A DNA stretch of 64,000 nt from a virus, in IMG/VR virus record IMGVR_UViG_3300022226_000005, positions 3,140 to 67,139 of that record, one strand, 5' to 3'. Position numbers and translations under genes: made by a program. Under the pieces are notes generated by a model. That model did not search any database. It saw nothing but the letters and a program-made list of their open reading frames with translations, and was not told the DNA's origin. Positions 24,494 through 41,304 of this stretch are shown here, piece by piece. Numbering within the stretch: position 1 is the stretch's first letter; each line of letters starts with the position of its first letter.

Positions 24494-24520
24494 ATTTCGA
24501 CATTAAAATCTTCTTATAAA

Positions 24521-25021: not shown

Positions 25022-25105
25022 GGCGATCTCCAAATTTAGGCCGCAGTGATCTACAGCCGGGGTGGTAAGGGAATGGGTAAGTTTACGCTGGTCAGCGCAG
25101 GGCTG

Positions 25106-26343: not shown

Positions 26344-26711
26344 GTGAATGCAGATATCCAGTCAGCTATTTCTTTGCACGAGATTGCGGCCCCGAGGTCG
26401 ATGGGGTTAAACATTTCTTCGCCAGTAAGAATAACTCCATTTTTAGTTCCGAGTCCCACAATAACTGCCACGTTGCGGCCTTCTTCCATTCGACCACGGA
26501 GCCATTTTTCTTGTAGGTCAGACAATGCAGCACTTTGTTTCGTAGTTTGCGGCGGCTTTGAGATAAGCTTGTATTCGACCCAAATGTCTGCCACTGGACC
26601 GCTATAATACGCATCAGGAATCCCAGCGGTGAAACGGTCGCTGATTTTCCAAGTGTATACATCACTCCTGAGGAGGTTTCCAATTTTTCTTGTGTATCCT
26701 GATTCGTTCAA
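26331..26711 (-). CDS. PD-(D/E)XK nuclease (VRR-NUC/resolvase-like)
   Basis: GIPD...IWVEYK motif. Confidence 0.8.
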   Translation of the reverse strand: MNESGYTRKIGNLLRSDVYTWKISDRFTAGIPDAYYSGPVADIWVEYKLISKPPQTTKQSAALSDLQEKWLRGRMEEGRNVAVIVGLGTKNGVILTGEEMFNPIDLGAAISCKEIADWISAFTCDR

Positions 26712-26784
26712 AAGTTGTGCGCCCCGCCTTTACCGACTTGTTATCCCGAGATATCAGAGGTTTTCAGATTGGGGCGCACTGCGC

Positions 26785-27420: not shown

Positions 27421-27427
27421 AGATTCC

Positions 27428-27793
27428 TCAGTTCGAACGTAGAGATAGTGTGCGTTTTGTAAATGGTCGTAATCCGGGCACGTCTTCGCCCGACTCACGT
27501 AGTTCTCGATACGATCTTACACTTGGGCGACGTTCAAGTAAATGAATATCTCCTGTGCGCATGATGTGTTCGAAAAATACTTCGTCGTTTTCAATCACCG
27601 GGACTACAGATTCCGTGATAGAAACTGTCGCCGTGTGTCCACGAGCCCCTGGCAGGTCCTGCTCTTCGAGCATCGCAAAAATATTTAATTCCTCTTCTTC
27701 CATGACTTTTCGGATTTTTGCTATTTCTGCTTCGAGCTCGCGCTTTTTTTCGCGCAGTGTGTGGAGTTTGTCGATGGCCGCGCCTAAATTCAT
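27428..27793 (-). CDS. Conserved replication-module protein with N-terminal coiled coil
   Basis: Coiled coil, LLERRPS and VPGL motifs; synteny between helicase and SSB. Confidence 0.6.
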   Translation of the reverse strand: MNLGAAIDKLHTLREKKRELEAEIAKIRKVMEEEELNIFAMLEEQDLPGARGHTATVSITESVVPVIENDEVFFEHIMRTGDIHLLERRPSVRSYRELRESGEDVPGLRPFTKRTLSLRSN

Positions 27794-27794
27794 T

Positions 27795-29171
27795 TTATAG
27801 TCCTAATATGTTGAGGAGAGTTGCTTGCTGGTCAATTTTCCCTTGCAGCTTATTGTACACATGTTCTTCGAGTGTTGCATTAGCTGTTATGTGGATAGTT
27901 TCAGTTTTTCGGGTTTGCCCAGCTCTATAAATTCTTTTGTTGAACTGGGAATATTGTTCCGAGGACCATGTGGGAGAAGCCCATATCGTGGTAGTGCCTC
28001 GGGTCAAGGTAAGTCCATGTGCTGCTGATTTCGGGTGGGCGAAAATAACTTTGATCAGGCCGTCTTGAAAATCTTCGACTGCTTTTTGTCGTTGTTTGTC
28101 GTTTGCTTTGCCGTTGATTATCCCGTATGTGATTTTTTCTTTGTCTGCTATTTTGCATAATTCTTCTAGTTGGTGTCCCCAGTTGTAGGCCACAACACAG
28201 GATTCGCGTTCTTTAATTAGTTGAATTATCAGTTCGTATCTTTCGGTATCGAATAGTTCCGCTGTGCTGTCGTTTTTGTACACTGAGCCAGAAGCCAACT
28301 GTAGTAGTTTTCCCGTTAATACTGCGGCATTCGACGCAGTAATGTCCTCTTGAGCGAGTTGGATCAAAGCATGCTCGGCTAATATGTCGTATTGCTTTCG
28401 TAAGCGAAATGGTAGGTCGAACGTGATTTCCGTTGTAAAATTGTCTGGTATGTCTATGCATTCTTCGAATACGTTCCTGATTGTGATGTCTGCTAGTAGA
28501 TCGGCGACGGCTTCGATTGATCCTTCTTTGTCGCGCCATTGCACCATGTTTGCGGCGGGGCCTACTCTAATGGGTTCGCATACGGAGTTGCGAAATCTCC
28601 AGTACGAAGTGCCAAGTCGCTCGCCGTTGTCGAGGATGAATGCTTGGTTCCATATGTCGGTGACTGTATTTGGGGCGGGTGTACCCGTCATTACTACTTT
28701 ATGATCAAAATGCCCCGAGATCGATTTAGCCGCCTTAGACCGTTGGGCGCTTGGATTCTTGAACGCAGTGGACTCGTCAATAACAAGATCCGTAAGGCCC
28801 AGATAGGCCCACGGATTATCTTTAAGCCATTTAACAGCGTCGTGGTTTGTAATGTAGATTTGCGCGTCTTCACTAAATGCTTTTCTTCTGTTGGTGGCGG
28901 TGGCGATCTTGTATTTTATTTGCGGCTGGAAGCGGATGATGTCATGTGCCCAGGCTGGTTCGAGAATAGACTTTGGTGCGATGACAAGAGCCTTGCGTGT
29001 CGGATCTTGCTCCAGTCGTTTAGCGAACCCGTCAAGGTACGCACGCGTTTTGCCTGTGCCTGGATCGGACATATCGAAGGTGATGGGGTTGTCTGTTTGG
29101 AACGCTGTGCTTTTGGCTTGGTGCTCATAGGCTTTTGGGATTTGATCTTTAGGCAGAGTGAAGTTTGGCAT
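27795..29171 (-). CDS. SNF2-family (SF2) helicase
   Basis: DPGTGKT, VIDES, MTGTP, AHGLTL, QFNKRIYRAGQ. Confidence 0.92.
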   Translation of the reverse strand: MPNFTLPKDQIPKAYEHQAKSTAFQTDNPITFDMSDPGTGKTRAYLDGFAKRLEQDPTRKALVIAPKSILEPAWAHDIIRFQPQIKYKIATATNRRKAFSEDAQIYITNHDAVKWLKDNPWAYLGLTDLVIDESTAFKNPSAQRSKAAKSISGHFDHKVVMTGTPAPNTVTDIWNQAFILDNGERLGTSYWRFRNSVCEPIRVGPAANMVQWRDKEGSIEAVADLLADITIRNVFEECIDIPDNFTTEITFDLPFRLRKQYDILAEHALIQLAQEDITASNAAVLTGKLLQLASGSVYKNDSTAELFDTERYELIIQLIKERESCVVAYNWGHQLEELCKIADKEKITYGIINGKANDKQRQKAVEDFQDGLIKVIFAHPKSAAHGLTLTRGTTTIWASPTWSSEQYSQFNKRIYRAGQTRKTETIHITANATLEEHVYNKLQGKIDQQATLLNILGL

Positions 29172-29895
29172 TCAGCGTTTTCCCATTAGCGGTATATACC
29201 GCTTTAGCGAATCCGCGCGGCGTAGCAGAACGGATATTTTTTGTTTTGAGGCTTTTGCCTCCCAGTTTCGTATATTGCAGAGAGTTCCCGGACTGGGCTC
29301 GAATAGGCTTTTTCTCTGGCATCTTATAGCCGCCACCCGTCCACAGGCAAGTTTTCTTCGTGTAGCCGTCGCGAGGCGTAATGTTTTCGGGGTATAGTGG
29401 GTGGATGTCATTTTCGGGTAGGTAGCCTCCGTATTCAAATGGGTCGAACATGTAGTCGGGTTTGCCGCAGTAGGTTGAGAACGTACTGACTGGGTTCTCG
29501 ATAAAATAAGGACACCCGAGCCACTCTCCTAATTCGCGACAAGTTGCGAATAAATCTAAAGAGAGCGCTAGTGCTCGGGGTCCTTTTTTCTGAAACCACA
29601 ACGCGCCACTGACGGCGACGTTGGTACATTCCGGAAAGCTACCCATGAAAGCTACCCGGTCAACGATCTCGCGTGGTGGTATCCAGCCGTGTCGAATATC
29701 CGCACCTACTTTGTAGAGCCCAGGTCGGGCGGGGTCTGCGTATATTCCTGTTTTGTGTTGTATGTCAACGATGTAACATTCATACCCAGCTTCGAGCCAG
29801 GGCTCTGCCATAATTCCTGTTAGGTCAAAGAGGAAGATTGCTACGTCTTTTTGTTTAATGGTTCTTTCTCCTTTTTTTTGAATATTGCGTCCCAT
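29149..29895 (-). CDS. DNA cytosine-C5 methyltransferase-like protein
   Basis: IFLFDLTG, SFPEC (catalytic Cys position), FIENPV, YTKKTCLW, RSATP.GFA. Confidence 0.7.
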   Translation of the reverse strand: MGRNIQKKGERTIKQKDVAIFLFDLTGIMAEPWLEAGYECYIVDIQHKTGIYADPARPGLYKVGADIRHGWIPPREIVDRVAFMGSFPECTNVAVSGALWFQKKGPRALALSLDLFATCRELGEWLGCPYFIENPVSTFSTYCGKPDYMFDPFEYGGYLPENDIHPLYPENITPRDGYTKKTCLWTGGGYKMPEKKPIRAQSGNSLQYTKLGGKSLKTKNIRSATPRGFAKAVYTANGKTLNAKLHSA

Positions 29896-29989
29896 TTTTC
29901 TTGGGGGATATCAGGCGCGTTATGGCGACGGCGACTGCCTTTGCCGCCGTCTTTGGATGTATGTATGCCTCCATTGTACGGTCTTTTGC

Positions 29990-30295
29990 TCATAGAATTC
30001 TCAGTGGTGTCATGCGTTCAGCGAGGTACCACTGCCCACCTTGGGACGAGGGCCTGTGTTCGATTGACCAGTCGTGGATTTCAACTTCGACCCATACGCG
30101 GTCTTTTCGATCGTCTTTCAGGTGGGGAGTGGTTGGTGTCGGGCAGCAGTGCCACCCAGGACGATGTGTGTAGCCCTTTGTACGATGGTCTTCCGCTTCG
30201 TACGTAGTACCAAGTGCTATGCGCTGCGGCCGGTTGATGAATAGCGGGCCGAGCGTACCGTCTCTTCGAATTGTCATTAGTTTGTATGCGATCAT
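29990..30295 (-). CDS. Conserved phage hypothetical protein
   Basis: RPGWHCC, RVWVEVE, QGG.WYLA motifs. Confidence 0.7.
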   Translation of the reverse strand: MIAYKLMTIRRDGTLGPLFINRPQRIALGTTYEAEDHRTKGYTHRPGWHCCPTPTTPHLKDDRKDRVWVEVEIHDWSIEHRPSSQGGQWYLAERMTPLRIL

Positions 30296-31014
30296 AAATC
30301 AGGGTCTACTGCGTATTGACATTTGCCGTTACCGTTTGCGACGCCGTAGTCGCAGTAAAGGCAGTTCATTTTGTTAGGTTTTGGTGGAAATTCAGTTGCT
30401 GACGTCATTTGGACGGCTCTTTTGTTGAAGTTTGCCATTTGAGCAGTGAGTTGGGAGCGGTTGTATGTACGTCTTTTTGTTTTCCCTTCGTCCAGGTACC
30501 AGAATTCGACAGTAATGCTCTGGGCCTGTGGAAATAAACACATCAAAGCCACACCATAAAGTGCACCCTGCTGAGAATGGGGCACCTCGTTCCCCCACGA
30601 TTTTCCCGTTTTGTAGTCGATTATGGTAAAAGTAGTCTCGTCGTGCTTGATTACTGCGTCCATCTTTGACTGATGCCATACGCTCCCCCAGTCAGTGAAG
30701 CCACACGGTTCCCAATCAGATGTAAAGCCCATTCCTTCTTCAAGGATGACTTGGCCTTCTTTGTACAAGTCCTGTAGTGATTCGAATTGGGAAGTGAACC
30801 GTTTAATGGAGCGTGGCATGTCAGGCACTTCACCTTTGACGTATTCTTCTGCTTCTCTATGAATTCGATTTCCTCGGACAAGGGGGTGAGTTTCATCGGT
30901 GTTTTCTTCCGTAGCGATGCGCTGTATACGCTTGAGGTATTGGGAGTACGGGCACCTCTCGTACTGCTTAAGGGAACTAAAGCTCCAGGTTTGGAGGTTT
31001 CTTGTGTTTGGCAT
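30292..31014 (-). CDS. PD-(D/E)XK exonuclease (Cas4/RecB-like)
   Basis: WSFSSL..YE.CP, RG..IH, KMDAV, IIDYKTGK, PN..NC.YC.Y. Confidence 0.9.
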   Translation of the reverse strand: MPNTRNLQTWSFSSLKQYERCPYSQYLKRIQRIATEENTDETHPLVRGNRIHREAEEYVKGEVPDMPRSIKRFTSQFESLQDLYKEGQVILEEGMGFTSDWEPCGFTDWGSVWHQSKMDAVIKHDETTFTIIDYKTGKSWGNEVPHSQQGALYGVALMCLFPQAQSITVEFWYLDEGKTKRRTYNRSQLTAQMANFNKRAVQMTSATEFPPKPNKMNCLYCDYGVANGNGKCQYAVDPDL

Positions 31015-31213
31015 TAAAGTACCTTCGTAAAAGAATACTGAGTGATAGTGAGCTCACTGTGAAAATTAGCGTCATAACAAAGGCGTCGCCTTGTTGGATG
31101 TACCCGCTGGCTATTAGTGGCCATATTATCCAACGAGTTATAGCTAGTGCGACGATGAATTTAATCGCTGTTTTTACTACTTCTTCAATTATTGATTCAG
31201 CTTTTGTTTGCAT
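30977..31213 (-). CDS. Small membrane protein
   Basis: Two hydrophobic helices, MQTK.ES..E start. Confidence 0.7.
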   Translation of the reverse strand: MQTKAESIIEEVVKTAIKFIVALAITRWIIWPLIASGYIQQGDAFVMTLIFTVSSLSLSILLRRYFNAKHKKPPNLEL

Positions 31214-31883
31214 AATTTTGCTCGAAGAGGTTTATTTTACTCTTACTGCCGTGAACATCAATAGCTATGTTTGGGGCTTTGATGGAGGTTCCGCTGCATA
31301 GTTTGCAGTCGGCGCATTGTACGCCTTTGTAAGAAGGGCAATAGATTTCGCCGTTAAGTAGCGGCTCGTTCGCTGTTTTGACCCGGTACGTTCGCCATCC
31401 CTGTTTAGTTGCCGAAAAATACTCCTGTTCATTGTCGACCGAAGCCATGCAGAGTGTTCTGAATTGTTTGTCACAAGTACTCCATTGATGCGTGTAGCCA
31501 GTATGATTCGGCCGGTGCAATTTCGCAAGAAGCTGTTGCCATGCCCCAAAGGGTATGGCAGTAGGGTCTCCGTATGCACCTAGTCGTAGGGGCACGCCTT
31601 TCGATTGCTGCGATAAGGTGTTTGGAGGGAATTTCTGAATTGCGGTTGGTGCTTGGTGGACTAATACGTAACAAGTGGCTCCGTTGCTTGGTCTGTGTAT
31701 GCAGTTTCCGCATATTGATTTGTCTGCTCCTGTTTTACACGCTTCGGTTGGCGACATTCCGTCAACTACGATCCAAGTTTGGAGCATATTACCGGTTTTT
31801 CGGTTAGATGAGTTTTCGGTGATGTAGCCTTTGATTGGGTTGCCGTCTATTTCGGACGGCCCACTGAAAAATAGTTCTGCCAT
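31197..31883 (-). CDS. Cys-rich GP88-like (radical-SAM-related) protein
   Basis: SICGNC, LRLGAYGDP, HTGYTHQW, MASVD, CP...CADCKLC. Confidence 0.6.
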   Translation of the reverse strand: MAELFFSGPSEIDGNPIKGYITENSSNRKTGNMLQTWIVVDGMSPTEACKTGADKSICGNCIHRPSNGATCYVLVHQAPTAIQKFPPNTLSQQSKGVPLRLGAYGDPTAIPFGAWQQLLAKLHRPNHTGYTHQWSTCDKQFRTLCMASVDNEQEYFSATKQGWRTYRVKTANEPLLNGEIYCPSYKGVQCADCKLCSGTSIKAPNIAIDVHGSKSKINLFEQNYANKS

Positions 31884-31886
31884 GTT

Positions 31887-34202
31887 TCACTTTATTTTTA
31901 CGACTTTATCCGTAGCCTTTTGGGTGGTGAAATAATCATCCATTTTTATTTTTGGGAACGCTGTGTCGTAGCCTTTTGTTACAAGGTTGGCTACGCGTTT
32001 GCGGCTGCTGCTCAGATTATGATAGGTGCACATTCTTGCGAATTTAGTTGCGGACATGTTGCGCGAGTTTTGTAGGATTTCGAACACACGTTGCAGTTCG
32101 TCGCGTGGTATAAAGTCTACGCCGGTTTCGGCCCACTCTTTGATTATGTTTTTATATTCTTCTGCAGTTATGTCGAATGCTGTGTTGCCGCTTCGGTCTA
32201 CGAATTCTAGGAAGAAATCGATGTTTCCTGTTTTGATTGCGTTAAAAAATAAGTCAACTGAATTGTATGATTTGTCTATTAAATCCTTACGCGCCTGGTT
32301 GTCAAGTACAGTTCTTGCGAGTCGCGCATTGGCGGCATAGGAATGTAGGAAATCTGCAAACTCTTTGAGTTCTGCTTCGATATCTGCCACTTGTTGAGCT
32401 GTGATTTCCAACCGCGTATTTTGCGGCGGCGCGATATTAAACCGGCGGTCGGTAGGGGATAGTGGAACAGCCGTGCCAGCGTTTGTGGCCAGAATAATAT
32501 TAAGAAAGGAATGAACCTCGTAAGCATTAGTTCGCATTCTGCGTATGGTAATTCGCTCTTCTGTGATGATATTTTTAATTTTGTTGTGTAGCCTTTCCAG
32601 TTGGTGGGCATCATGGATGTTGAATTCGTCAACAAATACAAAGATAGCTTCTTCGAGTTGGGCATTGAAAAGTTCTTCAAGGTTTTGTCCAGTAATTTGC
32701 GCGACGTATCTTTCTCCGAAGAGTGGCGCTAAAATTTTAGAGACTAGCAGGCCCTTGCCTGTTCCCTCTATCCCTGAGAACAGCCACGCTGTTTGGCTTT
32801 TTTGTCTTGTTTGAAAAATGAATGCTAGCCAGTTTAAAAAGTGCTCGTATGTTTGCTGGTCGGCTGTAATACTCTTTAGGATTAAGTCGATATTTTTTGG
32901 CACCGTGGCAGTGGGGGACGTAGAAGCGTTGCGGAGATACGGGGTGGGTGTAAATTTGTTTGCCCATTGGTCTGTGAAATCAATTACTTTGAGGGTTGTG
33001 GGGTTAAATTCATATGTCCAGTCCGGAATTGCTTCTGGCATGGGTATGTCGTGGTTGATTAGGAAGTCTTCTATTTTGGATTTGCTGGCTGTAGCTCTAA
33101 TATCGACTGTGTTTCCCACTGAATCGTAGAGTCCGTTGTAGTATTCGTCAGTGTTGAAATCTCTAAACACAACAGGAACGACTGTACGAGTCGTGGTTGC
33201 TTTTGCTCTTGCGATTCCTTGGTAGAATGTTGGGTCGATATCGCGGATTTTAACGAGCGGATGCCCTTTAAAGTTGCGCAGTACGTCGGGCCGGTTTTTT
33301 TCATAGTAATATCCCCATGATGGGTTGTCACCCACTATATTACAGCGTACGTATTCGCCTTGGTCCATGGTGTCGGCTATGATCATGGGGTCTGGGTTGG
33401 TTAGAATTTCATCGTCGCCATATGGTTTGTATTTAGCTTTTGATACTTTGAGCCCCATTTGTTTACGAAGCTCGTCGATTTTGTTTTGGAGGTCTGCTTT
33501 ATTTTTGCTTGGGTTTGGTGATGGCGTGAACGATGAAGTATCTTTGCCCCGCACCACTAAATCGAAGTATTGTGTTACCTGCGCGGACAAATTTATAAGA
33601 GTCGGGGGTGAAATGTATATTAACTTGTCGTTCTGGCAAGTAGAAATGTCGAGGGGCCATATAAGTGAGTGGCCATTCTTTGCGAGGATCAACTGATTGG
33701 CCAGTCCGCGCGTTGTAAAATTTAGTTCTTTCAGCCATTCTTTTAGTGCTCCTGGACTTGAGCGTGAAGCCAGCATGAAGTAAATGTGCCCCCGTAGGCC
33801 AGCCGTCCCTTTGAAGCCAGCGCTATTAGAGTGTTGGAATATATACGAGACATCTTGGAAATCCGGGCCGAGGCAGCGGATGAAGTCTTCGACGTCTGTG
33901 AACCCAGTGTCAAAGTCGAGGTCAAGGCATATCCATTCTGTTGGCTCTGTGGGGTTAGTTTTACCGCGTCTTTCTGATGCCACGAGTTCTTCTGATAAGA
34001 CGCCTTTGAGTGCGCAGTGGCCTTGGGCTGCGTGTTTGGTGAGGACTTGGTAGAGTTCATGGATTGTGGTGGGTTCTTCGCGGTGGCTGTTGAACGACTT
34101 TACTAGTGGGTATGGGTGGGTAGTAATTTTACCGTTGGCGTTTGCTTCGTGAGTTTTGCAGAGCGCAGCGCCATTGGCTGCTTCGAGGAAATCGATGCGC
34201 AT
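31887..34202 (-). CDS. DNA primase-helicase (primase N-terminus plus SF3/D5-like NTPase)
   Basis: WICLDLD, HIYF; Walker A GIEGTGKG, FVDE, DRRF. Confidence 0.85.
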   Translation of the reverse strand: MRIDFLEAANGAALCKTHEANANGKITTHPYPLVKSFNSHREEPTTIHELYQVLTKHAAQGHCALKGVLSEELVASERRGKTNPTEPTEWICLDLDFDTGFTDVEDFIRCLGPDFQDVSYIFQHSNSAGFKGTAGLRGHIYFMLASRSSPGALKEWLKELNFTTRGLANQLILAKNGHSLIWPLDISTCQNDKLIYISPPTLINLSAQVTQYFDLVVRGKDTSSFTPSPNPSKNKADLQNKIDELRKQMGLKVSKAKYKPYGDDEILTNPDPMIIADTMDQGEYVRCNIVGDNPSWGYYYEKNRPDVLRNFKGHPLVKIRDIDPTFYQGIARAKATTTRTVVPVVFRDFNTDEYYNGLYDSVGNTVDIRATASKSKIEDFLINHDIPMPEAIPDWTYEFNPTTLKVIDFTDQWANKFTPTPYLRNASTSPTATVPKNIDLILKSITADQQTYEHFLNWLAFIFQTRQKSQTAWLFSGIEGTGKGLLVSKILAPLFGERYVAQITGQNLEELFNAQLEEAIFVFVDEFNIHDAHQLERLHNKIKNIITEERITIRRMRTNAYEVHSFLNIILATNAGTAVPLSPTDRRFNIAPPQNTRLEITAQQVADIEAELKEFADFLHSYAANARLARTVLDNQARKDLIDKSYNSVDLFFNAIKTGNIDFFLEFVDRSGNTAFDITAEEYKNIIKEWAETGVDFIPRDELQRVFEILQNSRNMSATKFARMCTYHNLSSSRKRVANLVTKGYDTAFPKIKMDDYFTTQKATDKVVKIK

Positions 34203-34216
34203 TTATTGCTTCCGTA

Positions 34217-34384
34217 TCAGTCGGATAAGTAATCGGGCGACTCATCGTCATTATCTATTGTTAGCTCAAGGTCGATAAGAATATTTAATTGATTCAGTTT
34301 TTCGACTGCTTGTTCCATCGTAGATAACTTTTCAGTGGTGTCCCGATCTACGATGTGCCCATTCTCGTATTGGAATCTTAGCAC
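34217..34384 (-). CDS. Small hypothetical protein
   Basis: AGGAG SD before GTG 34384. Confidence 0.5.
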   Translation of the reverse strand: MLRFQYENGHIVDRDTTEKLSTMEQAVEKLNQLNILIDLELTIDNDDESPDYLSD

Positions 34385-34449
34385 GTTATTGCTCCTGTTG
34401 TGAAGCTTCATATTATTCCACTGTGGTGTGGACTGCCTGAAAAAGAGGG

Positions 34450-34551
34450 CACCGTTGTGGGGGTTGCACCCACACCATTTGCCCGCTTATACTAGTATCG
34501 GCGGGGTGGTTCTCATCTTGCCGTTGTGTTCTACGGCCTAGAGAAACGGTG
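34450..34551 (-). ncRNA. tRNA-like structured RNA (7-bp closing stem plus T arm, non-tRNA core)
   Basis: CACCGTT/AACGGTG stem; GTGGG-TGCAACC-CCCAC directly 5' of the 3' strand; two further multi-stem arms. Confidence 0.5.
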
Positions 34552-34628
34552 AATTTGGTTGGGCCAGCGTTGCAGAACCCGGCTGACCCGGAGCGGGTAG
34601 GAAAGGCATATGAGGGCCTATCTGCGGA

Positions 34629-35831
34629 TTAGGCGTCCGATATTTCAAGGAATACGGATTCGCCAAACTCGGGTTCTGGTGAATCTCTACACGTTCTTAT
34701 CCATAAGGTTGGATATTCGGGTGGCTGGAAGTCTGTGTTTGCGTAGCCGTCTGTTAGGTAAACAATACATTCCGGTTGTATGTTTTGTTTTTGAATCCAG
34801 TCGAATACTGGTTTGAAGTCGGTGCCTCCGCTACCACGTACTTTGAGTTTGAGTGGGAGGTCTTCAGGTTCATATTCTGTGTGGTTGTGTACTCGTGTGT
34901 TGCACATGACTACGGTCATTTTGCTTGGCGGGCAGTCTTCCAGGATGGCGTTGAGTTCGCCTTGGAATTGTTTGATTTCGTTGTTGGATACTGAGCAGGA
35001 GTCATCGATGGCGATTACGATTTCGCCCATCGATTCTGACCATTGGGATGGTAGGTAAAGGCCTTGGCTGATGTATCGGCGGTTGCCTTTTGCCCAAGAA
35101 TAGTCGGATTTGTCTGATTGTGTTAGGAAGCGGCGGAGGATTTCTTTCCATTGGACTTTTGGAGCCAGGATATCCATCATGATGTCTTCGATGCCGCCGG
35201 GGAGGTTTCCTTGCATTTTGGCGGCTTTTGCCGCTTGCGCAGTTGAGATTTTCCAGTCGTCGTCAAGTTCTTTATCCGACTGTGTAGTCGTTTTGCCTTG
35301 ACCCTTAGATGGATCGTCTTTACCAGTTCCTCCAGTTGGGGCGTCGTTAATTCCGGAAAAATTCGGCGGGCCTTCTCCATCGCCGTCTCCATCATCATCA
35401 TTGTCCTCTAGCTTGTTGTAAATGACTTCTGCGGTCATGCCTTTGTATTGCATGTCGCATGGGGATTCAGGCGGGAGTTCGAGGTCTTTGCAGTCGCTGA
35501 GGATGATATTTACTGCGTGGTCGCATGCACGATCCCACTTACCTTTATCTCGGTCTCCGCGACGTACGACGTGGCCAAGTGCGCAGTGCATCACGTTTTG
35601 TGCGATGCCGCCGACGAGCTGTCGTTCGTTTAGTTCACCGATATTTTCTGGGTTATAGAATAGATTTACCCCGTCTACGTGCATGTGTTTGACGTTGGTT
35701 GTCGGGACGTAGTTGAGTTTTAAGGCTAGAGACCCGAAGAACGGGTGGTCTAGGACCAGGTTGGCTTTTGCTTTACGCAGCCCTTCTTGTACGATCTTTG
35801 GATCGATTGGTGGATCTTTTTCGCTCATCAT
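34629..35831 (-). CDS. Metallopeptidase-like plus VWA domain protein (DUF2201-like)
   Basis: HPFFGSL, DGVNLFYNP, DDSCS (MIDAS), GGTDF, YLTDG. Confidence 0.85.
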   Translation of the reverse strand: MMSEKDPPIDPKIVQEGLRKAKANLVLDHPFFGSLALKLNYVPTTNVKHMHVDGVNLFYNPENIGELNERQLVGGIAQNVMHCALGHVVRRGDRDKGKWDRACDHAVNIILSDCKDLELPPESPCDMQYKGMTAEVIYNKLEDNDDDGDGDGEGPPNFSGINDAPTGGTGKDDPSKGQGKTTTQSDKELDDDWKISTAQAAKAAKMQGNLPGGIEDIMMDILAPKVQWKEILRRFLTQSDKSDYSWAKGNRRYISQGLYLPSQWSESMGEIVIAIDDSCSVSNNEIKQFQGELNAILEDCPPSKMTVVMCNTRVHNHTEYEPEDLPLKLKVRGSGGTDFKPVFDWIQKQNIQPECIVYLTDGYANTDFQPPEYPTLWIRTCRDSPEPEFGESVFLEISDA

Positions 35832-36528
35832 ATTTCTCCAGTATAGCTAGTTTGTTGGTTCCTACTCTTCGTAAAATCCTGTCGACTATTTTTCGGGGAT
35901 TGAATTCGCTGGTTGAGTTTCGGTTCCAGCGAGTTCCACAACCAAATTCCCAGTACATGTCGCCGATGTCGCGCATAAGCTTCAGGTTTTTTACAACGTT
36001 GACGCCGTCGAGTAGGTTTATTAAGGCTTCGATTTCTGCTTCTTTGTTGCCGTAGTGGTATTGTTTTTGGTTGGGGTCGAGGTGGAACGCTTTGTCGCCA
36101 AGTAGGCGTAGTTGGGGCTGAACTATTTTGCGGAAGCGGCGCGTGAGTTTGTGTAGTTCTTTGGTTTTTTCTTTTAGGTCGTCTACATAGATTACGCCTT
36201 CTAGGATGTGCCAGTCGCCGTTTGGTTGGAATTCGATTACTGTGTTATCAGTTAAGAAGTTTTTGTTGAGCTGGAAGGTTCTGGTTTTTGTTTTTTTGAG
36301 GACGAAGTGTTCGTTTGTTAGGACGTTTAGTATGTCGACTGCCGCTTGGTTTAGGTTGTTGCAGGACATAGTTAGATTCCAGCTTCCGTCTGGGCGGGAA
36401 ACGATATCGGCTCCGTAATAGATTTTTACGATAATGTTTTCTGTGCCTTGTTGCTCGTGTACGTGCATGAGCTTGCCGTCACGTTTTTGGTTGCTGAGGA
36501 TTAAGGCTTTGAGGTTAGCGTGGTTCAT
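35773..36528 (-). CDS. Hypothetical protein
   Basis: Long ORF with A-rich coding bias of this arm. Confidence 0.65.
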   Translation of the reverse strand: MNHANLKALILSNQKRDGKLMHVHEQQGTENIIVKIYYGADIVSRPDGSWNLTMSCNNLNQAAVDILNVLTNEHFVLKKTKTRTFQLNKNFLTDNTVIEFQPNGDWHILEGVIYVDDLKEKTKELHKLTRRFRKIVQPQLRLLGDKAFHLDPNQKQYHYGNKEAEIEALINLLDGVNVVKNLKLMRDIGDMYWEFGCGTRWNRNSTSEFNPRKIVDRILRRVGTNKLAILEKYDERKRSTNRSKDRTRRAA

Positions 36529-36779
36529 TCGAGATACTCCTTGACGGCGCTGAATTCTGATAGTCGTTGCATAATGACGCTGGGCGCTAGCGGGTCAGTG
36601 GTTAATTTTAAGACTTTTGCAATCGGAAAGTATGACTTAAACCGGTGAACTTCTTTTTGGTTTTCGTCGTAAATGACAAAATAGTCTCCGCGAGGGGGCG
36701 GGTATAAAAAAAGTGAAAAATAGCGGCCACCTTTGATTCTTCCTTTTGCGAGTTCGGCTGTAATGTTAATTCCGCTCAT
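36525..36779 (-). CDS. Hypothetical protein
   Basis: Packed ORF, GAGGA SD. Confidence 0.55.
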   Translation of the reverse strand: MSGINITAELAKGRIKGGRYFSLFLYPPPRGDYFVIYDENQKEVHRFKSYFPIAKVLKLTTDPLAPSVIMQRLSEFSAVKEYLE

Positions 36780-37008
36780 ATCTTTTCCTCAGATCGGCGA
36801 TTGGTTTTCTGTTTTTGTCGTCGTAGTTTAGGTTGAGGTTTTGGTGTGCTATCCATGCTTTTAGGCGTGGTCTGGCTACCATCTTTAGTTTGTTGTTTTT
36901 ATCTAAGAACCATAGTGAGTTGTTGTGTACACGAAAATACTGGGTGCATTCTAGTAATCGAGCTTTTCCCAGTACCGCTTTTATTTCTTTTTCGGTCCAG
37001 TCAGGCAT
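36766..37008 (-). CDS. Hypothetical protein
   Basis: Packed ORF. Confidence 0.55.
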   Translation of the reverse strand: MPDWTEKEIKAVLGKARLLECTQYFRVHNNSLWFLDKNNKLKMVARPRLKAWIAHQNLNLNYDDKNRKPIADLRKRYERN

Positions 37009-37852
37009 GGTTGGTTGGTAACTGTCTGATTATGGCGTCGGTTTTTTGTATTGCGATTTTTCGTATGACGTCGTCTGTTTTGATGGCTTCGGGGCTTAGA
37101 TTGAACAGGTTGTTTTCAATTTGTTTGGCAATTGCCATGAGTTTTACGTCATCTTCGAAGTTCATTTCTTTGATTTGGTTTACCAGGGTGACGAGGTTTT
37201 CGTGAACCGTAGAACGGTATACGCGACGGCTTGGATTTGCAAGTGTCGTGTAGAGCGAATCGAGGCAGGCAGATGTGCGATTCCATAGGTCGTTCGTTGC
37301 GTGTTTGGTAGCTGTTGAAAGCCGTTTTTCAAGGTCGTCCTGTAGGTCTTTGAGTTGTTGTTCGGGGATGTCAATTCTGAAGTCTCCCTGGTCGGGTACT
37401 GGCGTGATGCGATGTTCGAAGCGGAATCTGCTGCGTACTACGTCGGCGGGTGGGAAGTCTGCGATATCAAACATGTCACCAAGTCGACTCCTGGCATATT
37501 CGATGTAGGTTGGATATCCCACAAGAAACGACTGCAGGGCTTCGTCAAAGTCTTGACGGACTTTACGCATTCGAGCAGTGTATTCGGGGATTTTACGGAT
37601 CGGTAGAATTCGAGTACCTGAGGTTTCGTTCCAGTCGAGTGTGTTGGCGTAGTGGTAGCTTCGGGCTTCATTGATAACCCCTTGAATTTTCTTGAGCGCG
37701 TCTTTATGGAGAAGGTGTTTGTTGAACCGGCCTGCGTCTTTGGCGGCACCGTGTTGTTCGTTGGCTTTGGCGCTGACTTTGCTGTCGAATTTTTGGAATG
37801 TGCATTGTGAGACATTCAGTGTTACTAGGACTGTTTTGGTGTTGAGGCTCAT
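37001..37852 (-). CDS. DUF3150-like protein
   Basis: VLVTLNVSQ, GRFNKHLL, TLDW...RILP, YPT, FPP...RF pattern; next to AAA/VWA genes. Confidence 0.6.
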   Translation of the reverse strand: MSLNTKTVLVTLNVSQCTFQKFDSKVSAKANEQHGAAKDAGRFNKHLLHKDALKKIQGVINEARSYHYANTLDWNETSGTRILPIRKIPEYTARMRKVRQDFDEALQSFLVGYPTYIEYARSRLGDMFDIADFPPADVVRSRFRFEHRITPVPDQGDFRIDIPEQQLKDLQDDLEKRLSTATKHATNDLWNRTSACLDSLYTTLANPSRRVYRSTVHENLVTLVNQIKEMNFEDDVKLMAIAKQIENNLFNLSPEAIKTDDVIRKIAIQKTDAIIRQLPTNHA

Positions 37853-37862
37853 AGTTTATCTC

Positions 37863-38474
37863 CTACGATAAAAATTTTGCTCCGAGTAGTCGGGCTTTGG
37901 CAATTGCAGTGGTTGTGTCTACTTTGGTTTTTATTGGTGTCAGCACTTCGTTTTTGCGGCGAAGGGCTGCTTCTCGCCGTAAGTTTTTCTGGTGTTCGAT
38001 TTCCGCTTTTACGGTATTGAGTTCTAGTGTTTCGGGGTATGCTGTTGTTAGTTGTTTGAGTGTGGGTGTTTCGTTATATTTTGTCCAGAGGTCTCGGCGA
38101 AGTTGGCGTTGTAGTTCTTTTGCTTCGTTCGTGTATTTTTTGTAGCGTGAGTCGGCTCTGGGTTGAACGGTCATTTCTTCGGTGTCGCCATGAAGTTCCA
38201 GGTCTGCAGATATGCGGGTTATACCTTGTTTCATTAGTGGTACTTCACGTGGTAAGTTATAGCTGTTTCCGACGAAGACGTCGAATATTTTTATTGTTTT
38301 TTCCAGTTTGTTTTTCTTACTGGTTGAGGTGTTTAGATACGGTGTGGAGTTTAAAATTAGCGCTGCCATTTCTTCTGGGCTTGGGTGCTTTGGTAGGTCG
38401 CATTCCTGGTTTAATTCTGTTTTTTCTACTTGTTCTTTAATAATTCGTTCAAGTAAGCTGATTGATAATCGCAT
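37863..38474 (-). CDS. Hypothetical protein, Nmad5-like
   Basis: TLKQLTTAYPE motif; AGGAG SD. Confidence 0.45.
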   Translation of the reverse strand: MRLSISLLERIIKEQVEKTELNQECDLPKHPSPEEMAALILNSTPYLNTSTSKKNKLEKTIKIFDVFVGNSYNLPREVPLMKQGITRISADLELHGDTEEMTVQPRADSRYKKYTNEAKELQRQLRRDLWTKYNETPTLKQLTTAYPETLELNTVKAEIEHQKNLRREAALRRKNEVLTPIKTKVDTTTAIAKARLLGAKFLS

Positions 38475-38949
38475 TTGGGAGGAACCTTTTTAGTTCGGGA
38501 AAACGTATGAGTGCTTTTTCGATTGTTGTTTCTCGTAAAGCTTCGCTTGCTGCTTCGAGCAGGGCTTCTCTAGCTGTGGCGAGTTCGCGAACCCGCTCGT
38601 GATATTTTTGTATTGCGGGCGGGATACTGTTGGTTTTTACATAGAGTCTTGTATAGTAGCCGCCGCCGCTGATGGTGTCGTCGTTGTATTCTTTTGCGTT
38701 GAGTGCGCCGTATTTATTGGGTGGTAGGTTTACGTTCCATAGATTGACGTTGTGGTCTGTGCTGAACATTACGCGCCGCCAGATATCTTCATAGAAATGG
38801 GGGTGAATTTCTTTGTCTATTTTGTATTTTTCTAGTAGCGGTAAAGATTCCTGGTAGTAGTCAGGCTCTTTGATTTTTTCTTTGGCTTGGTTGAAAAAAT
38901 TATTGATGCTGAGCCTGACTAAGGAGCGTATTTCGTTGTTTGTTCTCAC
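38449..38949 (-). CDS. Hypothetical protein, Nmad5-like
   Basis: C-terminal TIEKALIRFPELKRFLP; GTGA overlap with the AAA gene stop. Confidence 0.45.
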   Translation of the reverse strand: MRTNNEIRSLVRLSINNFFNQAKEKIKEPDYYQESLPLLEKYKIDKEIHPHFYEDIWRRVMFSTDHNVNLWNVNLPPNKYGALNAKEYNDDTISGGGYYTRLYVKTNSIPPAIQKYHERVRELATAREALLEAASEALRETTIEKALIRFPELKRFLPNAIINQLT

Positions 38950-39932
38950 AGAAGAATGTCCGTGTTGTCCGCGATCCATTCGGCCATTTCCTTGGTTTCG
39001 AGAAGATCGGGTGAGCGTTGGATAGTCATCTTGACTGTCGGGACTTGGAACTCATCTGGCATGCGGCGCAGGTATTCGTTGACTTTTGGGATGTTCTTTT
39101 CGGTCATGTGTTCTGAGAGCATGCCTGCGGTGGCGTATAGCGATGCTGGTTCTGAGGGCATTGGTGTGCCTTGGGGATCTTTTTCGATTGATTCGATGTC
39201 CGGTAGGTCACGGTAAATTCGGATATAGGACATGAATTCGCCAGCTGCAGCTTCGCCGACGGCGGCAATCAGCATTTCGTATTCCAGGTCTGGTGTTGCG
39301 TTATCCAGGATGCGAGATGCGTAAGCCCATGTACGCGGTGTTGCGAAAGAGCGGTGATCTTTGCCGGGATCGTGGTCGTGTAGCATTTCCGGGCGGAACC
39401 GCATGAAAGATACGATTTCGGGGCGGATATTGTTGTTGTTCGCCCAGTTGACCCAGTCGTTCAGCTGCGGTTCGAAATCCACGTGAATCAGCCTGTTGTT
39501 CAGCGCTGAGGACATTTTGTTTGCGAGAGCCCGATCTTGTGCGCGGTTACCGGCACAGATGATTCTCCATCCTTCGGGGAGTTCGTAGTCGCCTACTTTG
39601 CGGTCCAGGATCAGTTGGTATGCTGCGGCTTGGACAGAGTGCGAGGCTTGGTTGATCTCGTCGAAGAACATGATTCCTTCGGGCTCAACATCGGGGTTTG
39701 GCAGGAAGTGTGGTACGTTCCAGATGGTGTAGCCGTCTAGGCAGGAAGGAATACCTCGGATGTCGACGGGGTCCATTTGTGAGAGGCGTATGTCTCTTAC
39801 GGGGATGCCGAGGGAGGCTCCGATTTGGAAAACAGTTTCGGATTTACCTACTCCGGGTGCACCCCATATCATGACGGGGATGTCAGCGTTGAGGCCTACT
39901 TGGATTGCGCTTGCAGCTTTGGACGGGTTCAT
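38946..39932 (-). CDS. MoxR-type AAA+ ATPase
   Basis: GAPGVGKS, DIRGIP, FFDEINQA, AGN, ALNNRL, TPRTW. Confidence 0.92.
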   Translation of the reverse strand: MNPSKAASAIQVGLNADIPVMIWGAPGVGKSETVFQIGASLGIPVRDIRLSQMDPVDIRGIPSCLDGYTIWNVPHFLPNPDVEPEGIMFFDEINQASHSVQAAAYQLILDRKVGDYELPEGWRIICAGNRAQDRALANKMSSALNNRLIHVDFEPQLNDWVNWANNNNIRPEIVSFMRFRPEMLHDHDPGKDHRSFATPRTWAYASRILDNATPDLEYEMLIAAVGEAAAGEFMSYIRIYRDLPDIESIEKDPQGTPMPSEPASLYATAGMLSEHMTEKNIPKVNEYLRRMPDEFQVPTVKMTIQRSPDLLETKEMAEWIADNTDILL

Positions 39933-39941
39933 ATTTTGCTC

Positions 39942-40289
39942 CTAGTGAAGTTTGCTTGGGTCGGGTTTGCCCTTTAGTTCTCCGGTGTCGCCGTCAACTT
40001 GTTTGACGCCTTCTACGTCACCAGCTTCGATGGCTTTCTTGAGAACTTCGGGGAGTTGTTCAAGGGTTTTCTGGATGATTCGCGGTATTTGATCAACCGC
40101 GTCCAGGGTGGTTGTGATAACAATCACTTGCTCGGCCGGTTGGGTCAAGACCATTGCATTTCTCTGGTCTGTTTCTTTGTAAAGCTGGCAGATGACTGAG
40201 GATAGGATTGCGATGCCTTTTTCCGGACCCATTGCTTTGAGGCAGGATTCGGTTAGGGCTTCGATGGTTTGTACATCACTTTTGCTCAT
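39942..40289 (-). CDS. Hypothetical protein
   Basis: GGAG SD before ATG 40289. Confidence 0.65.
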   Translation of the reverse strand: MSKSDVQTIEALTESCLKAMGPEKGIAILSSVICQLYKETDQRNAMVLTQPAEQVIVITTTLDAVDQIPRIIQKTLEQLPEVLKKAIEAGDVEGVKQVDGDTGELKGKPDPSKLH

Positions 40290-40309
40290 AATTTTTCTCC
40301 GGTTAGAAT

Positions 40310-40344
40310 AAAAAACGCCCACGGCAGTCGTAGCTGCGTGGGCG
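40310..40344 (-). terminator. Intrinsic terminator
   Basis: CGCCCAC..GCAG / CTGC.GTGGGCG hairpin followed by a T-run on the minus strand. Confidence 0.7.
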
Positions 40345-40375
40345 AAGAAAAGCTAGGTTAGAGGAGGTAGGTTAC

Positions 40376-40729
40376 CTAGCTTTTGTGCTCGTCAATAATT
40401 TTTGTTAGATCTTTGACTATGGTTTTGGCTACTTCTTCGTCTATTTTTAAGACTGATGGTTTTGTTTCGCCTTTGAGGCCGTCAACCAGTTTCTCTATGA
40501 TAGACGATGCTGCTTCCTCTTGTTTTTTCATAGCCGTGTATATCATGTAGCCATGTTTGTACCATTTGAATGTCGTATATGCATGTATGCCACTCAGAAA
40601 CCCCATCATGATGAATGCGGCGTCCGCACGATTTATCGGGTCTCCGGAGTTGATGCTCATGAAATACATTGTTGATATAGCTGCAATAAGGATTGCCGGG
40701 ACTAGTAAAAGCTTTATTGTGGGGTTCAT
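40376..40729 (-). CDS. Membrane protein with two TM helices
   Basis: Two hydrophobic segments then a charged tail. Confidence 0.7.
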   Translation of the reverse strand: MNPTIKLLLVPAILIAAISTMYFMSINSGDPINRADAAFIMMGFLSGIHAYTTFKWYKHGYMIYTAMKKQEEAASSIIEKLVDGLKGETKPSVLKIDEEVAKTIVKDLTKIIDEHKS

Positions 40730-40749
40730 ATTTTTCTCCGGGCACGGTT

Positions 40750-41304
40750 TTATCCGTGTAGTTGGTGGTAACAGTGTTGGACCATTATGGCCTGTTTGAT
40801 TGCATCATCTCGTGCATCGTGCGCGGTGCCCGATTCCACGTTGGGCATGGGGTCATCTGGGTATGCGAGTTCGATAGTTGTTCTGAGAGACCGGTGCTGA
40901 TGGTATGCAAAAGGTGAATTATCATTAATTGACTTAAAAGCATGATTGAGAATGACGATATCAAAATCAGGGTCGTTTGCATAGTATCTGTCTGCTGTTT
41001 TGCTTTCTAACCACATTCTGTATTTTAGAAGGGCTGTGTTAAGGGGCATCAGAGGATCACGGAAGAGTGATTTCTGGGCGTCTTTTGATTGTTTGAGCCA
41101 CCACTCAATTGTGCTGGCGCTCATGGTTCGCCCGAATTTTTCGTTTGATTCGAGCGAAATGTTTACGTTGAACGAGTGTTTTGCTAGAGATTCGTGCGAA
41201 TCTTTTCCCGCTACATCGAAGTGGACGGCACCGATGGATACGATGGCGGCGGTTGGTATGACGTCCATCGTTTCGATGTCGACCATTATTGCGGGTCTTT
41301 TCAA
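40750..41304 (-). CDS. DEDDh 3'-5' exo(ribo)nuclease
   Basis: MVDIET, IVSIGAV, TIEWW, FDIVIL, HDARDDA; GGAG SD and TTGA overlap. Confidence 0.88.
   Translation of the reverse strand: MKRPAIMVDIETMDVIPTAAIVSIGAVHFDVAGKDSHESLAKHSFNVNISLESNEKFGRTMSASTIEWWLKQSKDAQKSLFRDPLMPLNTALLKYRMWLESKTADRYYANDPDFDIVILNHAFKSINDNSPFAYHQHRSLRTTIELAYPDDPMPNVESGTAHDARDDAIKQAIMVQHCYHQLHG

What the first reader, a model, noticed from the sequence alone, without database searches (positions are those of the whole stretch)
34412..34628. Intergenic 102-nt RNA with a tRNA acceptor stem and T arm but a foreign core
Minus strand 34551-34450: exact 7-bp stem CACCGTT/AACGGTG stacked on GTGGG-TGCAACC-CCCAC, the tRNA top-half geometry. 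The D and anticodon arms are replaced by TCTC[GCCGT-AGAACACA-ACGGC]GAGA and ACCA[CCCGC...GCGGG]TGGT, the latter capped by the palindrome ATACTAGTAT (34489-34498). It ends C-CCT rather than N-CCA. Another 8-bp hairpin lies upstream (34561-34589). Possible roles: tRNA-mimic decoy, RNase P/Z processing signal for the primase mRNA, or a kissing-loop dimer.
Basis: partly seen in the sequence, partly recalled or inferred. Interest (0 to 1): 0.7.

Follow-up and report, generated by a model that had tools for sequence, protein, structure and literature searches.

The report
Inserted tRNA-like RNA cassette in phage
An uncultured sediment phage has picked up a 113-base cassette, absent from all its known relatives, that folds like the upper half of a tRNA joined to two foreign hairpins; it resembles phage T4's still-unexplained 'species 1' RNA, but there is no evidence yet that it is expressed or useful.

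Summary
Minus strand 34551-34450 folds as a perfect four-way junction. A 7-bp acceptor stem stacks on a 5-bp/7-nt T arm, and two non-tRNA hairpins fill the core (MFE -38.9 kcal/mol, z -3.07). This top-half geometry with T-loop rules occurs only here and in a true tRNA in the window, and in 0 of 40 shuffles.

Three new results:
- The element plus an 11-nt trailer (34551-34439, 113 nt) is a clean lineage-specific insertion. Four relatives share the flanking intergenic region and lack it, and the closest relative's complete genome has no copy.
- Its exact T arm (GTGGG-TGCAACC-CCCAC, G55 instead of U55) is the T arm of Rfam-valid tRNAs in tRNA arrays and of a phage two-piece tmRNA, so the top half derives from a tRNA.
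- Only the upstream hairpin (34561-34589) is conserved with compensatory changes.

ARAGORN and Rfam do not call the element. No homologue, covariation or RNA data exist.

Best reading (about 0.5): a horizontally acquired tRNA-like small-RNA cassette of the T4 rnaC design, co-transcribed with the replication genes and probably excised by RNase P and 3' processing; its downstream function is unknown.

Earlier unchecked notes of this scan describe similar designs on other phage DNA, with no sequence likeness to this one.

The parts
34439..34551 (-). 113-nt lineage-specific insertion: the tRNA-like element plus its trailer
   Evidence: BLASTN: window 24426-34438 aligns to G001 30160-40149, and window 34552-35892 aligns to G001 40150-41501, which are adjacent bases in the relative. 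L002, L004, L005 and L006 also lack it. GC is 0.549 against 0.47-0.49 in the flanks.
34545..34551 (-). Acceptor-stem 5' strand CACCGTT
34511..34544 (-). Hairpin H1 in the place of the D arm: TCTC/GAGA stem, internal loops, GCCGT/ACGGC stem, loop AGAACACA
   Evidence: pair probabilities 0.78-1.0. An alternative D-arm fold (TCTA-GGCCG-TAGA) is 10-13 kcal/mol worse and has probability of about 0.
34474..34510 (-). Hairpin H2 in the place of the anticodon arm: ACCA/TGGT and CCCGC/GCGGG stems, with a 14-nt loop holding the palindrome ATACTAGTAT (34489-34498)
34457..34473 (-). T arm GTGGG-TGCAACC-CCCAC (G53:C61, T54, C56, A57, A58 kept; G at position 55)
   Evidence: The identical 17-mer is the T arm of tRNAs in L011, L022 and L026 and of the tmRNA in L009.
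34450..34456 (-). Acceptor-stem 3' strand AACGGTG
34439..34449 (-). 3' trailer CCCTCTTTTTC that came with the insertion (discriminator C, then CC, then a T-rich run; no encoded CCA)
34561..34589 (-). Conserved 8-bp hairpin of the ancestral intergenic region; not part of the insertion
   Evidence: Present in all five relatives, with compensatory changes at stem pairs 2, 3 and 4.
34599..34619 (-). Conserved 21-mer AGGCCCTCATATGCCTTTCCT just after the stop codon of the upstream gene
   Evidence: Nearly invariant in the five relatives. Unique in the window.
34629..35831 (-). Upstream gene: DUF2201_N metallopeptidase-like plus VWA-like protein (400 aa)
   Evidence: Pfam PF13203 3.7e-46, PF09967 5.6e-26
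34217..34384 (-). Downstream small ORF. The likely true start is GTG at 34384 behind AGGAG, giving 55 aa as in the relatives; the ORF listing extends it to ATG at 34411.
31887..34202 (-). Primase/helicase-like gene (771 aa, DUF5906)
   Evidence: Pfam. 34% identity to the Pseudomonas phage KPP25/phiR18 protein; Nitratiruptor phage NrS-1 primase 8e-22.

Best explanation
The element is a horizontally acquired, tRNA-derived small-RNA cassette of 113 nt. It was inserted into a conserved intergenic region of the phage's replication-gene operon, on the same strand as the genes. Its ends form a true tRNA 'top half': a 7-bp acceptor stem coaxial with a 5-bp T stem and a T loop. The D and anticodon arms are replaced by two unrelated hairpins, so it cannot decode.

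Inferred mechanism: it is co-transcribed with the flanking genes. Host RNase P cuts at the 5' end of the acceptor stem, before C34551, where U is at position -1. The 3' trailer is removed, and because CC is already encoded, the CCA-adding enzyme needs only to add A. These steps would release a stable tRNA-like RNA of about 102-105 nt. They would also sever the upstream DUF2201 gene's mRNA from the small-ORF/primase mRNA.

Shown here: the fold, the tRNA origin of the T arm, and the insertion. Inferred: transcription, processing, and any trans-acting role of the released RNA, such as a decoy for a tRNA-binding host factor. The design matches phage T4 species 1 RNA (rnaC), whose function is also unknown.
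For: - Fold and statistics.
- The exact T arm occurs as the T arm of Rfam-valid tRNAs (L022 59.1 bits, L011 49.7, L026 40.6) and of a permuted tmRNA (RF04321, 82.1 bits).
- Clean 113-nt insertion: the empty site is conserved in four relatives and the closest relative's complete genome has no copy. Higher GC than the flanks.
- Same orientation as the operon genes; T-loop rules are satisfied only on that strand.
- All 30 pairs of the named helices are perfect Watson-Crick, which does not look like a decaying pseudogene.
- T4 rnaC folds into the same topology: closing stem, two hairpins, and a T arm next to the 3' strand.
- Literature: a 7-bp acceptor stem is a major RNase P determinant, and M. 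smegmatis YrlA with such a stem is cleaved by RNase P and receives CCA (PMC4201824). Non-canonical tRNA-like t-elements direct RNase P/Z cuts in plant mitochondrial mRNAs (PMC1920247). RNase P processes phage M3 and C4 RNAs and operon mRNAs (PMC11143913).
Against: - No homologue of the element was found, so there is no covariation support for any of its helices.
- No own promoter is evident.
- U55 is replaced by G, and there is no D-loop partner for the T loop, so the tRNA elbow that RNase P and other enzymes read may not form.
- The junction has no linker nucleotides and may adopt an X shape, not an L shape.
- No encoded CCA, whereas most true tRNAs of this phage and its relative end in CCA.
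- A single recent insertion may simply be neutral.
Confidence: 0.5

Rival explanations
1. Neutral relic. A fragment of a tRNA or tRNA-like gene from another phage or tRNA array was captured by illegitimate recombination. It persists as functionless passenger DNA, transcribed or not.
For: - Single copy, single lineage, no relatives anywhere.
- Relatives function without it.
- No anticodon loop and no encoded CCA.
- Phage tRNA genes are often gained and lost (own knowledge).
Against: - Thirty perfect Watson-Crick pairs, and a fold far better than shuffles.
- The two core hairpins are well formed, not degraded versions of D and anticodon arms; the tRNA-like alternative fold is 10-13 kcal/mol worse.
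- A very recent insertion could still show all of this.
Confidence: 0.27
2. DNA-level element. It could be a miniature mobile element with 7-nt terminal inverted repeats (CACCGTT/AACGGTG), or a single-strand DNA structure such as a priming or replication signal placed beside the primase gene.
For: - Clean insertion with terminal inverted repeats.
- Both strands fold equally well because no pair is G-U.
- It lies about 240 nt upstream of a primase gene.
Against: - No target-site duplication and no boundary ambiguity.
- No second copy in this genome, in the relative's genome or in IMG/VR by three 17-22-nt probes.
- No transposase or integrase in the genome.
- This reading does not explain why the hairpin next to the 3' repeat is an exact tRNA/tmRNA T arm obeying T-loop rules.
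Confidence: 0.1
3. Cis-regulatory RNA acting on the small ORF/primase genes: a newly gained attenuator, terminator, stabiliser or ligand or protein sensor in the 5' leader.
For: - It lies in the leader of the small ORF and primase, and ends in CCCUCUUUUU.
- Four-way junctions are common in riboswitches (own knowledge).
Against: - No Rfam family matches even at E up to 10.
- The T run is 3 nt from the closing stem and 10 nt from the T-arm hairpin, and the simple terminator scan does not call it on the minus strand.
- Relatives regulate the same genes without it.
- This reading does not explain the tRNA-type T arm.
Confidence: 0.08
4. Bona fide but aberrant tRNA: class-II-like, with H2 as a giant variable arm, or a tRNA carrying an intron.
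For: - T8 is present.
- A possible short D arm TCTA-GGCCG-TAGA with GG in its loop.
- H2 sits where a variable arm would sit.
- ARAGORN calls a 'tRNA-Gly(acc)' with an intron at an 80% score threshold.
- This phage carries other odd tRNAs.
Against: - Not called by ARAGORN at default settings or by Rfam tRNA.
- The cloverleaf alternative is 10-13 kcal/mol less stable, with probability of about 0.
- The putative anticodon stem has 3 of 5 pairs and no U33.
- The relaxed ARAGORN model needs an intron at a non-canonical place.
Confidence: 0.04

Closest known systems
Phage T4 species 1 RNA (rnaC) and species 2 RNA (rnaD)
   Same: A phage-encoded small RNA of 100-140 nt. rnaC folds as a closing stem, two non-tRNA hairpins and a T arm placed directly 5' of the closing 3' strand, the same four-way topology as here. 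It has no anticodon arm. Its function is still unknown (PMC3014915, PMC9697503). It is in no Rfam family.
   Different: - No sequence similarity.
- rnaC sits inside the T4 tRNA cluster, whereas this element is 10 kb from the phage's tRNA genes, between protein-coding genes.
- rnaC has a canonical TTCGAAT T loop and an imperfect closing stem; here the acceptor stem is a perfect 7 bp and the T loop has G55.
- rnaC is conserved among T-even phages, whereas this element is an orphan insertion.
- Expression is shown for rnaC and not for this element.
t-elements of plant mitochondria (tRNA-like processing signals in mRNAs)
   Same: Non-canonical cloverleaves with a good acceptor and T arm, embedded between genes in long transcripts. 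RNase P and RNase Z cut at their ends, and the excised element can receive C/CA (PMC1920247). This is the processing outcome predicted here.
   Different: t-elements are organellar and carry the canonical GGTTCRANYCC T arm, and their ends have been mapped experimentally. None of this is shown for the phage element.
Mycobacterium smegmatis YrlA (bacterial Y RNA with a tRNA-like domain)
   Same: A non-decoding RNA with a T arm and a 7-bp acceptor-like stem that is cut by RNase P and receives CCA. YrlA-like RNAs also occur in phages (PMC4201824).
   Different: - YrlA is defined by a Ro60-binding module (GNCGAAN0-1G motif) and lies within 4 kb of a Ro60/TROVE gene. This phage has no TROVE gene and the element has no such motif.
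- YrlA keeps a D arm.
- No Rfam match.
tmRNA tRNA-like domain (two-piece tmRNA of the phage contig L009)
   Same: Identical 17-nt T arm next to a 7-nt acceptor 3' strand.
   Different: The element has no G3:U70 (it has C3:G70), no ACCA end, no tag reading frame and no pseudoknots. Neither ARAGORN nor Rfam calls a tmRNA.

Membership tests
tRNA (Rfam RF00005) | 7-bp acceptor stem coaxial with a 5-bp T stem; 7-nt T loop with G53:C61, T54, C56, A58 | tested here: met
   The exception is position 55, which is G, not U. The same variant T arm occurs in Rfam-valid tRNAs.
tRNA (Rfam RF00005) | D arm with G18G19, and a 5-bp anticodon stem with a 7-nt loop (U33) | tested here: not met
   The stable fold has two foreign hairpins. 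The cloverleaf alternative is 10-13 kcal/mol worse with probability of about 0, and no U33 loop exists.
tRNA (Rfam RF00005) | Score above detection thresholds (ARAGORN default, Rfam gathering score 29 bits) | tested here: not met
   It is called only at ARAGORN -ps80, with a contrived intron.
tmRNA | G3:U70 acceptor pair, ACCA end, tag reading frame, model match | tested here: not met
   C3:G70, end C-CCT, no tag; no ARAGORN or Rfam tmRNA call.
YrlA / bacterial Y RNA | Ro60 (TROVE) gene nearby and a GNCGAAN0-1G Ro-binding motif (PMC4201824) | tested here: not met
   No TROVE match in the whole 68.7-kb genome at E up to 1. The motif is absent from the sequence. No Rfam match.
T4 rnaC-type phage tRNA-like stable RNA | Four-way fold: closing stem, two non-tRNA hairpins, T arm adjacent to the 3' closing strand | tested here: met
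   which have the same topology.
T4 rnaC-type phage tRNA-like stable RNA | Sequence homology to rnaC or rnaD, and a position inside the tRNA gene cluster | tested here: not met
   Only chance words of 9 nt or less. The element is about 10 kb from the tRNA genes at 44.2-44.9 kb.
T4 rnaC-type phage tRNA-like stable RNA | Accumulates as a discrete stable RNA during infection | not testable with these tools
   Needs RNA data.
Miniature inverted-repeat mobile element | Terminal inverted repeats, target-site duplication, multiple copies | tested here: not met
   It has a 7-nt inverted repeat only. There is no duplication at the junctions. It is single copy in the window, the relative and IMG/VR.
Phage attP carrying a tRNA 3' end | Integrase gene in the phage, and only the 3' part of a tRNA present | tested here: not met
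   No tyrosine or serine recombinase in the complete genome. Both acceptor strands are present.

The most novel reading that the evidence does not exclude
The element is one instance of an uncatalogued class of phage 'tRNA-ended' RNAs. These would be cassettes that move between phages and are excised by tRNA-processing enzymes. They would act in trans as decoys or sponges for host factors that read the tRNA top half, such as tRNA-targeting defence nucleases or processing, modification or CCA enzymes. The palindromic H2 loop might allow dimerisation. L010, which has the same T arm and a different multi-branched core, and T4 rnaC would be other members.
Probability: 0.1. Interest if true: 0.8.

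Novelty: new variant of a known kind. Interest (0 to 1): 0.45.

Why it matters
Phage T4's species 1 and 2 RNAs have been known for about fifty years without an assigned function. If unrelated phages keep acquiring RNAs of the same design (tRNA ends, non-tRNA core), that points to a general and selectable use for a tRNA top half in infection. Candidate uses are mRNA punctuation, a decoy against tRNA-directed defences, or a stable RNA scaffold.

This case adds one clean data point. The cassette can be seen arriving as a discrete 113-nt insertion into an otherwise conserved operon. Its T arm links it to a variant tRNA/tmRNA population (G55, short D loops) found in tRNA arrays. On its own it is an orphan without expression data, so its weight is modest.

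Tried and rejected
- **Detectors.** ARAGORN at default settings and Rfam at gathering score and at E up to 10 give no call for the element.
- **Relaxed ARAGORN.** It gives a contrived tRNA-Gly with an intron; I rejected this.
- **Homologue searches, all negative.**
  - blastn against 50,697 phage records, with the 701-nt and the 113-nt query: no match or only chance words.
  - IMG/VR exact probes of 22, 19 and 19 nt: 0 hits.
  - Combined motif TCTCTAG..GGGTGCAACCCCC: only L010.
  - Earlier notes of this scan searched by sequence: none.
- **L010.** It has the same T arm, is intergenic, and folds at -49.1 kcal/mol with z -3.06.
  - I tested it as a homologue and rejected that: outside the T arm the alignment score is no better than shuffles (91 of 500 as good).
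  - The shared TCTCTAG and ACCACC pair differently, and its closing stem is imperfect.
  - No relative of L010 was found to test it further.
- **attP reading.** Rejected: no integrase or resolvase.
- **Y RNA reading.** Rejected: no TROVE gene.
- **Terminator or promoter.** The simple scan calls nothing relevant on the minus strand.
- **Sequencing runs.**
  - No RNA holder is listed.
  - Three sediment DNA runs, two of which may be the source of this DNA, hold the region with no differences, so they give no covariation.
  - In run X3 the contigs stop at 34538 and resume at 34580; I draw nothing from that uncovered stretch.
  - Run X4 covers only part of the small ORF, from a distant relative.
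- **L007.** This contig has the closest upstream gene (91% aa) but ends before the intergenic region.
- **Other.** A 9-codon ATG frame inside the element (MRTTPPILV) has no convincing ribosome-binding site; I did not pursue it.

Full report
**Where the window comes from.** The window is bases 3140-67139 of a 68.7-kb IMG/VR virus record, rated 100% complete and recovered from sediment metagenomes. Its nearest cultured kin are distant: the primase-like protein is 34% identical to that of Pseudomonas phages KPP25 and phiR18. The finding lies on the minus strand. Upstream is a DUF2201 metallopeptidase/VWA-like gene (34629-35831). Downstream are a small ORF and a 771-aa primase/helicase-like gene (31887-34202).

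**Checking the observation.**
- RNAfold gives exactly that four-way junction as both MFE and centroid: -38.9 kcal/mol, z = -3.07, 1 of 200 shuffles as good.
- Pair probabilities are at least 0.73 for all helices.
- The junction has no unpaired linker nucleotides, and all 30 pairs of the named helices are Watson-Crick.
- I wrote a scan for the tRNA top half: a perfect 7-bp stem, an immediately adjacent 5-bp/7-nt hairpin, and G53:C61, T54, C56 and A58. It finds two sites in the window, tRNA-Asn and this element, and none in 40 dinucleotide-preserving shuffles. Without the T-loop rules the shuffles give 0.875 per window.
- A slightly relaxed version run on the window, on two other phage genomes and on two further viral loci (L008, L009) returns only true tRNA genes and this element.

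**The element is an insertion.** This is the main new result. Using the upstream protein as a probe, I recovered one viral contig (L002, 85% aa identity) and three metagenome contigs spanning the intergenic region (L004-L006, 75-76%) with the same gene order. All four share the intergenic anatomy:
- a nearly invariant 21-mer just after the stop codon;
- an 8-bp hairpin;
- the bases (C)AAATT, or GATT in L005 and L006;
- a second hairpin;
- the ribosome-binding site of the small ORF.

All four lack the stretch 34551-34439. BLASTN of the window against the closest relative's whole genome states it exactly. Window 24426-34438 aligns to 30160-40149, and window 34552-35892 aligns to 40150-41501, which are adjacent bases. 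The relative's complete 75.5-kb genome has no copy elsewhere. Because the closest relative and the more distant ones all show the same empty site, a gain in the window's lineage is the parsimonious reading. The inserted unit is the 102-nt structure plus an 11-nt trailer, CCCTCTTTTTC. It has no target-site duplication. Its GC content is 0.55, against 0.47-0.49 around it.

**The top half is of tRNA origin.** The 17-nt T arm GTGGG-TGCAACC-CCCAC is unusual because it has G where U55 normally stands. Exact-match scans found it 3 times in IMG/VR and 24 times in 596 Gb of prokaryote genomes, roughly the number expected by chance. Four of these hits, however, sit exactly at the T-arm position of RNAs that pass Rfam thresholds:
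- tRNA-Lys in L011 (49.7 bits);
- tRNA-Lys in L022 (59.1 bits);
- tRNA-Gly in L026 (40.6 bits), all three inside dense tRNA arrays;
- a two-piece tmRNA on phage contig L009 (RF04321, 82.1 bits; G3:U70, ACCA end, tag AYTYNTALAA).

Two of those tRNAs have short D loops, AAGCA and AAGGCA. So this T-arm variant belongs to a population of tRNAs with an altered elbow. A fifth hit, L010, is intergenic in another phage fragment. It lies in a multi-branched RNA closed by a stem next to the T arm (-49.1 kcal/mol, z -3.06). Outside the T arm it is not demonstrably homologous to the window's element, and I could find no relatives of it.

**What the element is not.**
- **Not a decoding tRNA.** ARAGORN and Rfam do not call it. 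The only relaxed call needs a misplaced intron. A cloverleaf alternative with a short D arm is 10-13 kcal/mol worse and has essentially zero probability.
- **Not a tmRNA.** It has C3:G70, no tag and no ACCA end.
- **Not a Y RNA.** The genome has no TROVE gene and the element has no Ro-binding motif (PMC4201824).
- **Not an attP.** The complete genome has no integrase or resolvase.
- **Not a multi-copy mobile element.**
- **Not any Rfam family.** It matches none, even at E up to 10.

**The closest known thing.** Phage T4 rnaC (species 1 RNA), taken from the annotated T4 record, folds as a closing stem, two non-tRNA hairpins and a T arm directly next to the 3' closing strand. That is the topology seen here. 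rnaC and rnaD are in no Rfam family, so Rfam's silence says nothing about this kind of RNA. Their roles are still described as unknown (PMC3014915; PMC9697503). There is no sequence similarity between them and the window's element. The element also lies outside the phage's tRNA cluster, so it resembles rnaC in design without being a family member.

**Most likely mechanism.** This part is inferred. The cassette lies on the coding strand of a tightly packed operon and has no evident promoter, so it is probably co-transcribed with its neighbours. A 7-bp acceptor stem stacked on a T arm is what RNase P measures. M. smegmatis YrlA, which has such a stem, is cut by RNase P and receives CCA in vivo (PMC4201824). 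Non-canonical tRNA-like t-elements direct RNase P/Z cleavage of plant mitochondrial mRNAs (PMC1920247). RNase P also processes phage M3 and C4 RNAs and operon mRNAs (PMC11143913).

I therefore expect:
- a cut before C34551, where the base at -1 is U;
- removal of the T-rich trailer;
- completion of the encoded C-CC to CCA.

This would release a stable RNA of about 102-105 nt and separate the upstream and downstream messages. Whether the released RNA does anything, for example as a decoy for tRNA-binding factors or as a dimer through the ATACTAGTAT loop, is open.

The caveats are real. G55 and the missing D-loop partner may prevent a tRNA-like elbow. The linker-free junction may be X-shaped. 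The element has no relatives, so not one of its helices has covariation support. I put about 0.5 on 'acquired tRNA-like RNA cassette that is transcribed and processed'. I put about 0.27 on 'neutral relic of a captured tRNA-like gene'. The remainder goes to DNA-level, cis-regulatory and aberrant-tRNA readings.

**The upstream hairpin.** It is present in all five relatives with compensatory changes: G:C to A:T at stem pairs 2 and 3, and U:G, C:G or A:T at pair 4. It belongs to the ancestral intergenic region and not to the insertion. Its role is unknown. It has a 13-nt loop and no following T run, so it is not a typical terminator.

**Relation to earlier notes of this scan.** Earlier notes, unchecked AI leads found by a word search, describe 146-nt and 214-nt 'tRNA-ended' RNAs in other phages and also name T4 rnaC as the nearest known. 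A sequence look-up found no likeness to this element. I checked the rnaC comparison myself.

**Verdict.** This is a real, non-random, tRNA-derived structured cassette and a clear insertion. It is a new variant of the T4 rnaC kind of phage tRNA-like RNA. It is an orphan without expression or covariation evidence, so its interest is moderate.

Noticed in passing
window 34552-34628 (minus); L002 4213-4291; L004 1183-1261; L005 2097-2170; L006 4179-4252: The ancestral intergenic region holds a nearly invariant 21-mer, AGGCCCTCATATGCCTWTCCT, that is unique in the window. It also holds an 8-bp hairpin with compensatory changes and a 13-nt loop, and a second structure-conserved hairpin just 3' of the insertion site (window TCCAC/GTGGA 34417-34432). 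This is probably a regulatory RNA or protein-binding site of the primase module.
   Followed up: partly
L011 1617-1686, L022 3609-3679, L026 6903-6975, L009/L036 1250-1450: A variant T arm, GTGGG-TGCAACC-CCCAC (G55 instead of U55), is shared by Rfam-valid tRNAs in dense tRNA arrays of Planctomycetota and Verrucomicrobiota MAG contigs. Two of these tRNAs have short D loops (AAGCA, AAGGCA). A phage-borne two-piece tmRNA has the same T arm. This suggests a lineage of tRNAs with an altered elbow.
   Followed up: partly
L010 1763-1883 (minus), IMGVR_UViG_3300023284_001620: An intergenic multi-branched RNA of about 121 nt lies downstream of an RNase H-like gene. It carries the same T arm next to its closing stem, and its 3' end reads G-CCA (-49.1 kcal/mol, z -3.06). 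ARAGORN and Rfam do not call it, and no relatives were found.
   Followed up: partly
window 44630-44698 (minus): My top-half scan finds a 69-nt tRNA-like gene with a perfect acceptor stem and a canonical T arm (GGTTCGATCC). ARAGORN and Rfam missed it. It ends GCAC, not CCA. It lies between tRNA-Met and the next ORF.
   Followed up: no
G001 (IMGVR_UViG_3300009135_000001) 59304-59458 (plus): The closest relative carries a tRNA with anticodon CTA, which would read amber codons; ARAGORN labels it 'Pyl'. It sits next to an odd 72-nt tRNA with a 2-nt 'anticodon' call. The window's phage has a different tRNA set.
   Followed up: no
window 17300-17324, 44605-44636, 47985-48021, 54133-54160: A repeated motif of the type GCACTTCGCACTTCGCAC recurs in several intergenic places on both strands. 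It may be a phage promoter or a protein-binding repeat.
   Followed up: no
L043 (T4) 2909-3172: T4 rnaC and rnaD have no Rfam family. rnaC scores only 17.5 bits against tRNA-Sec.
   Followed up: yes
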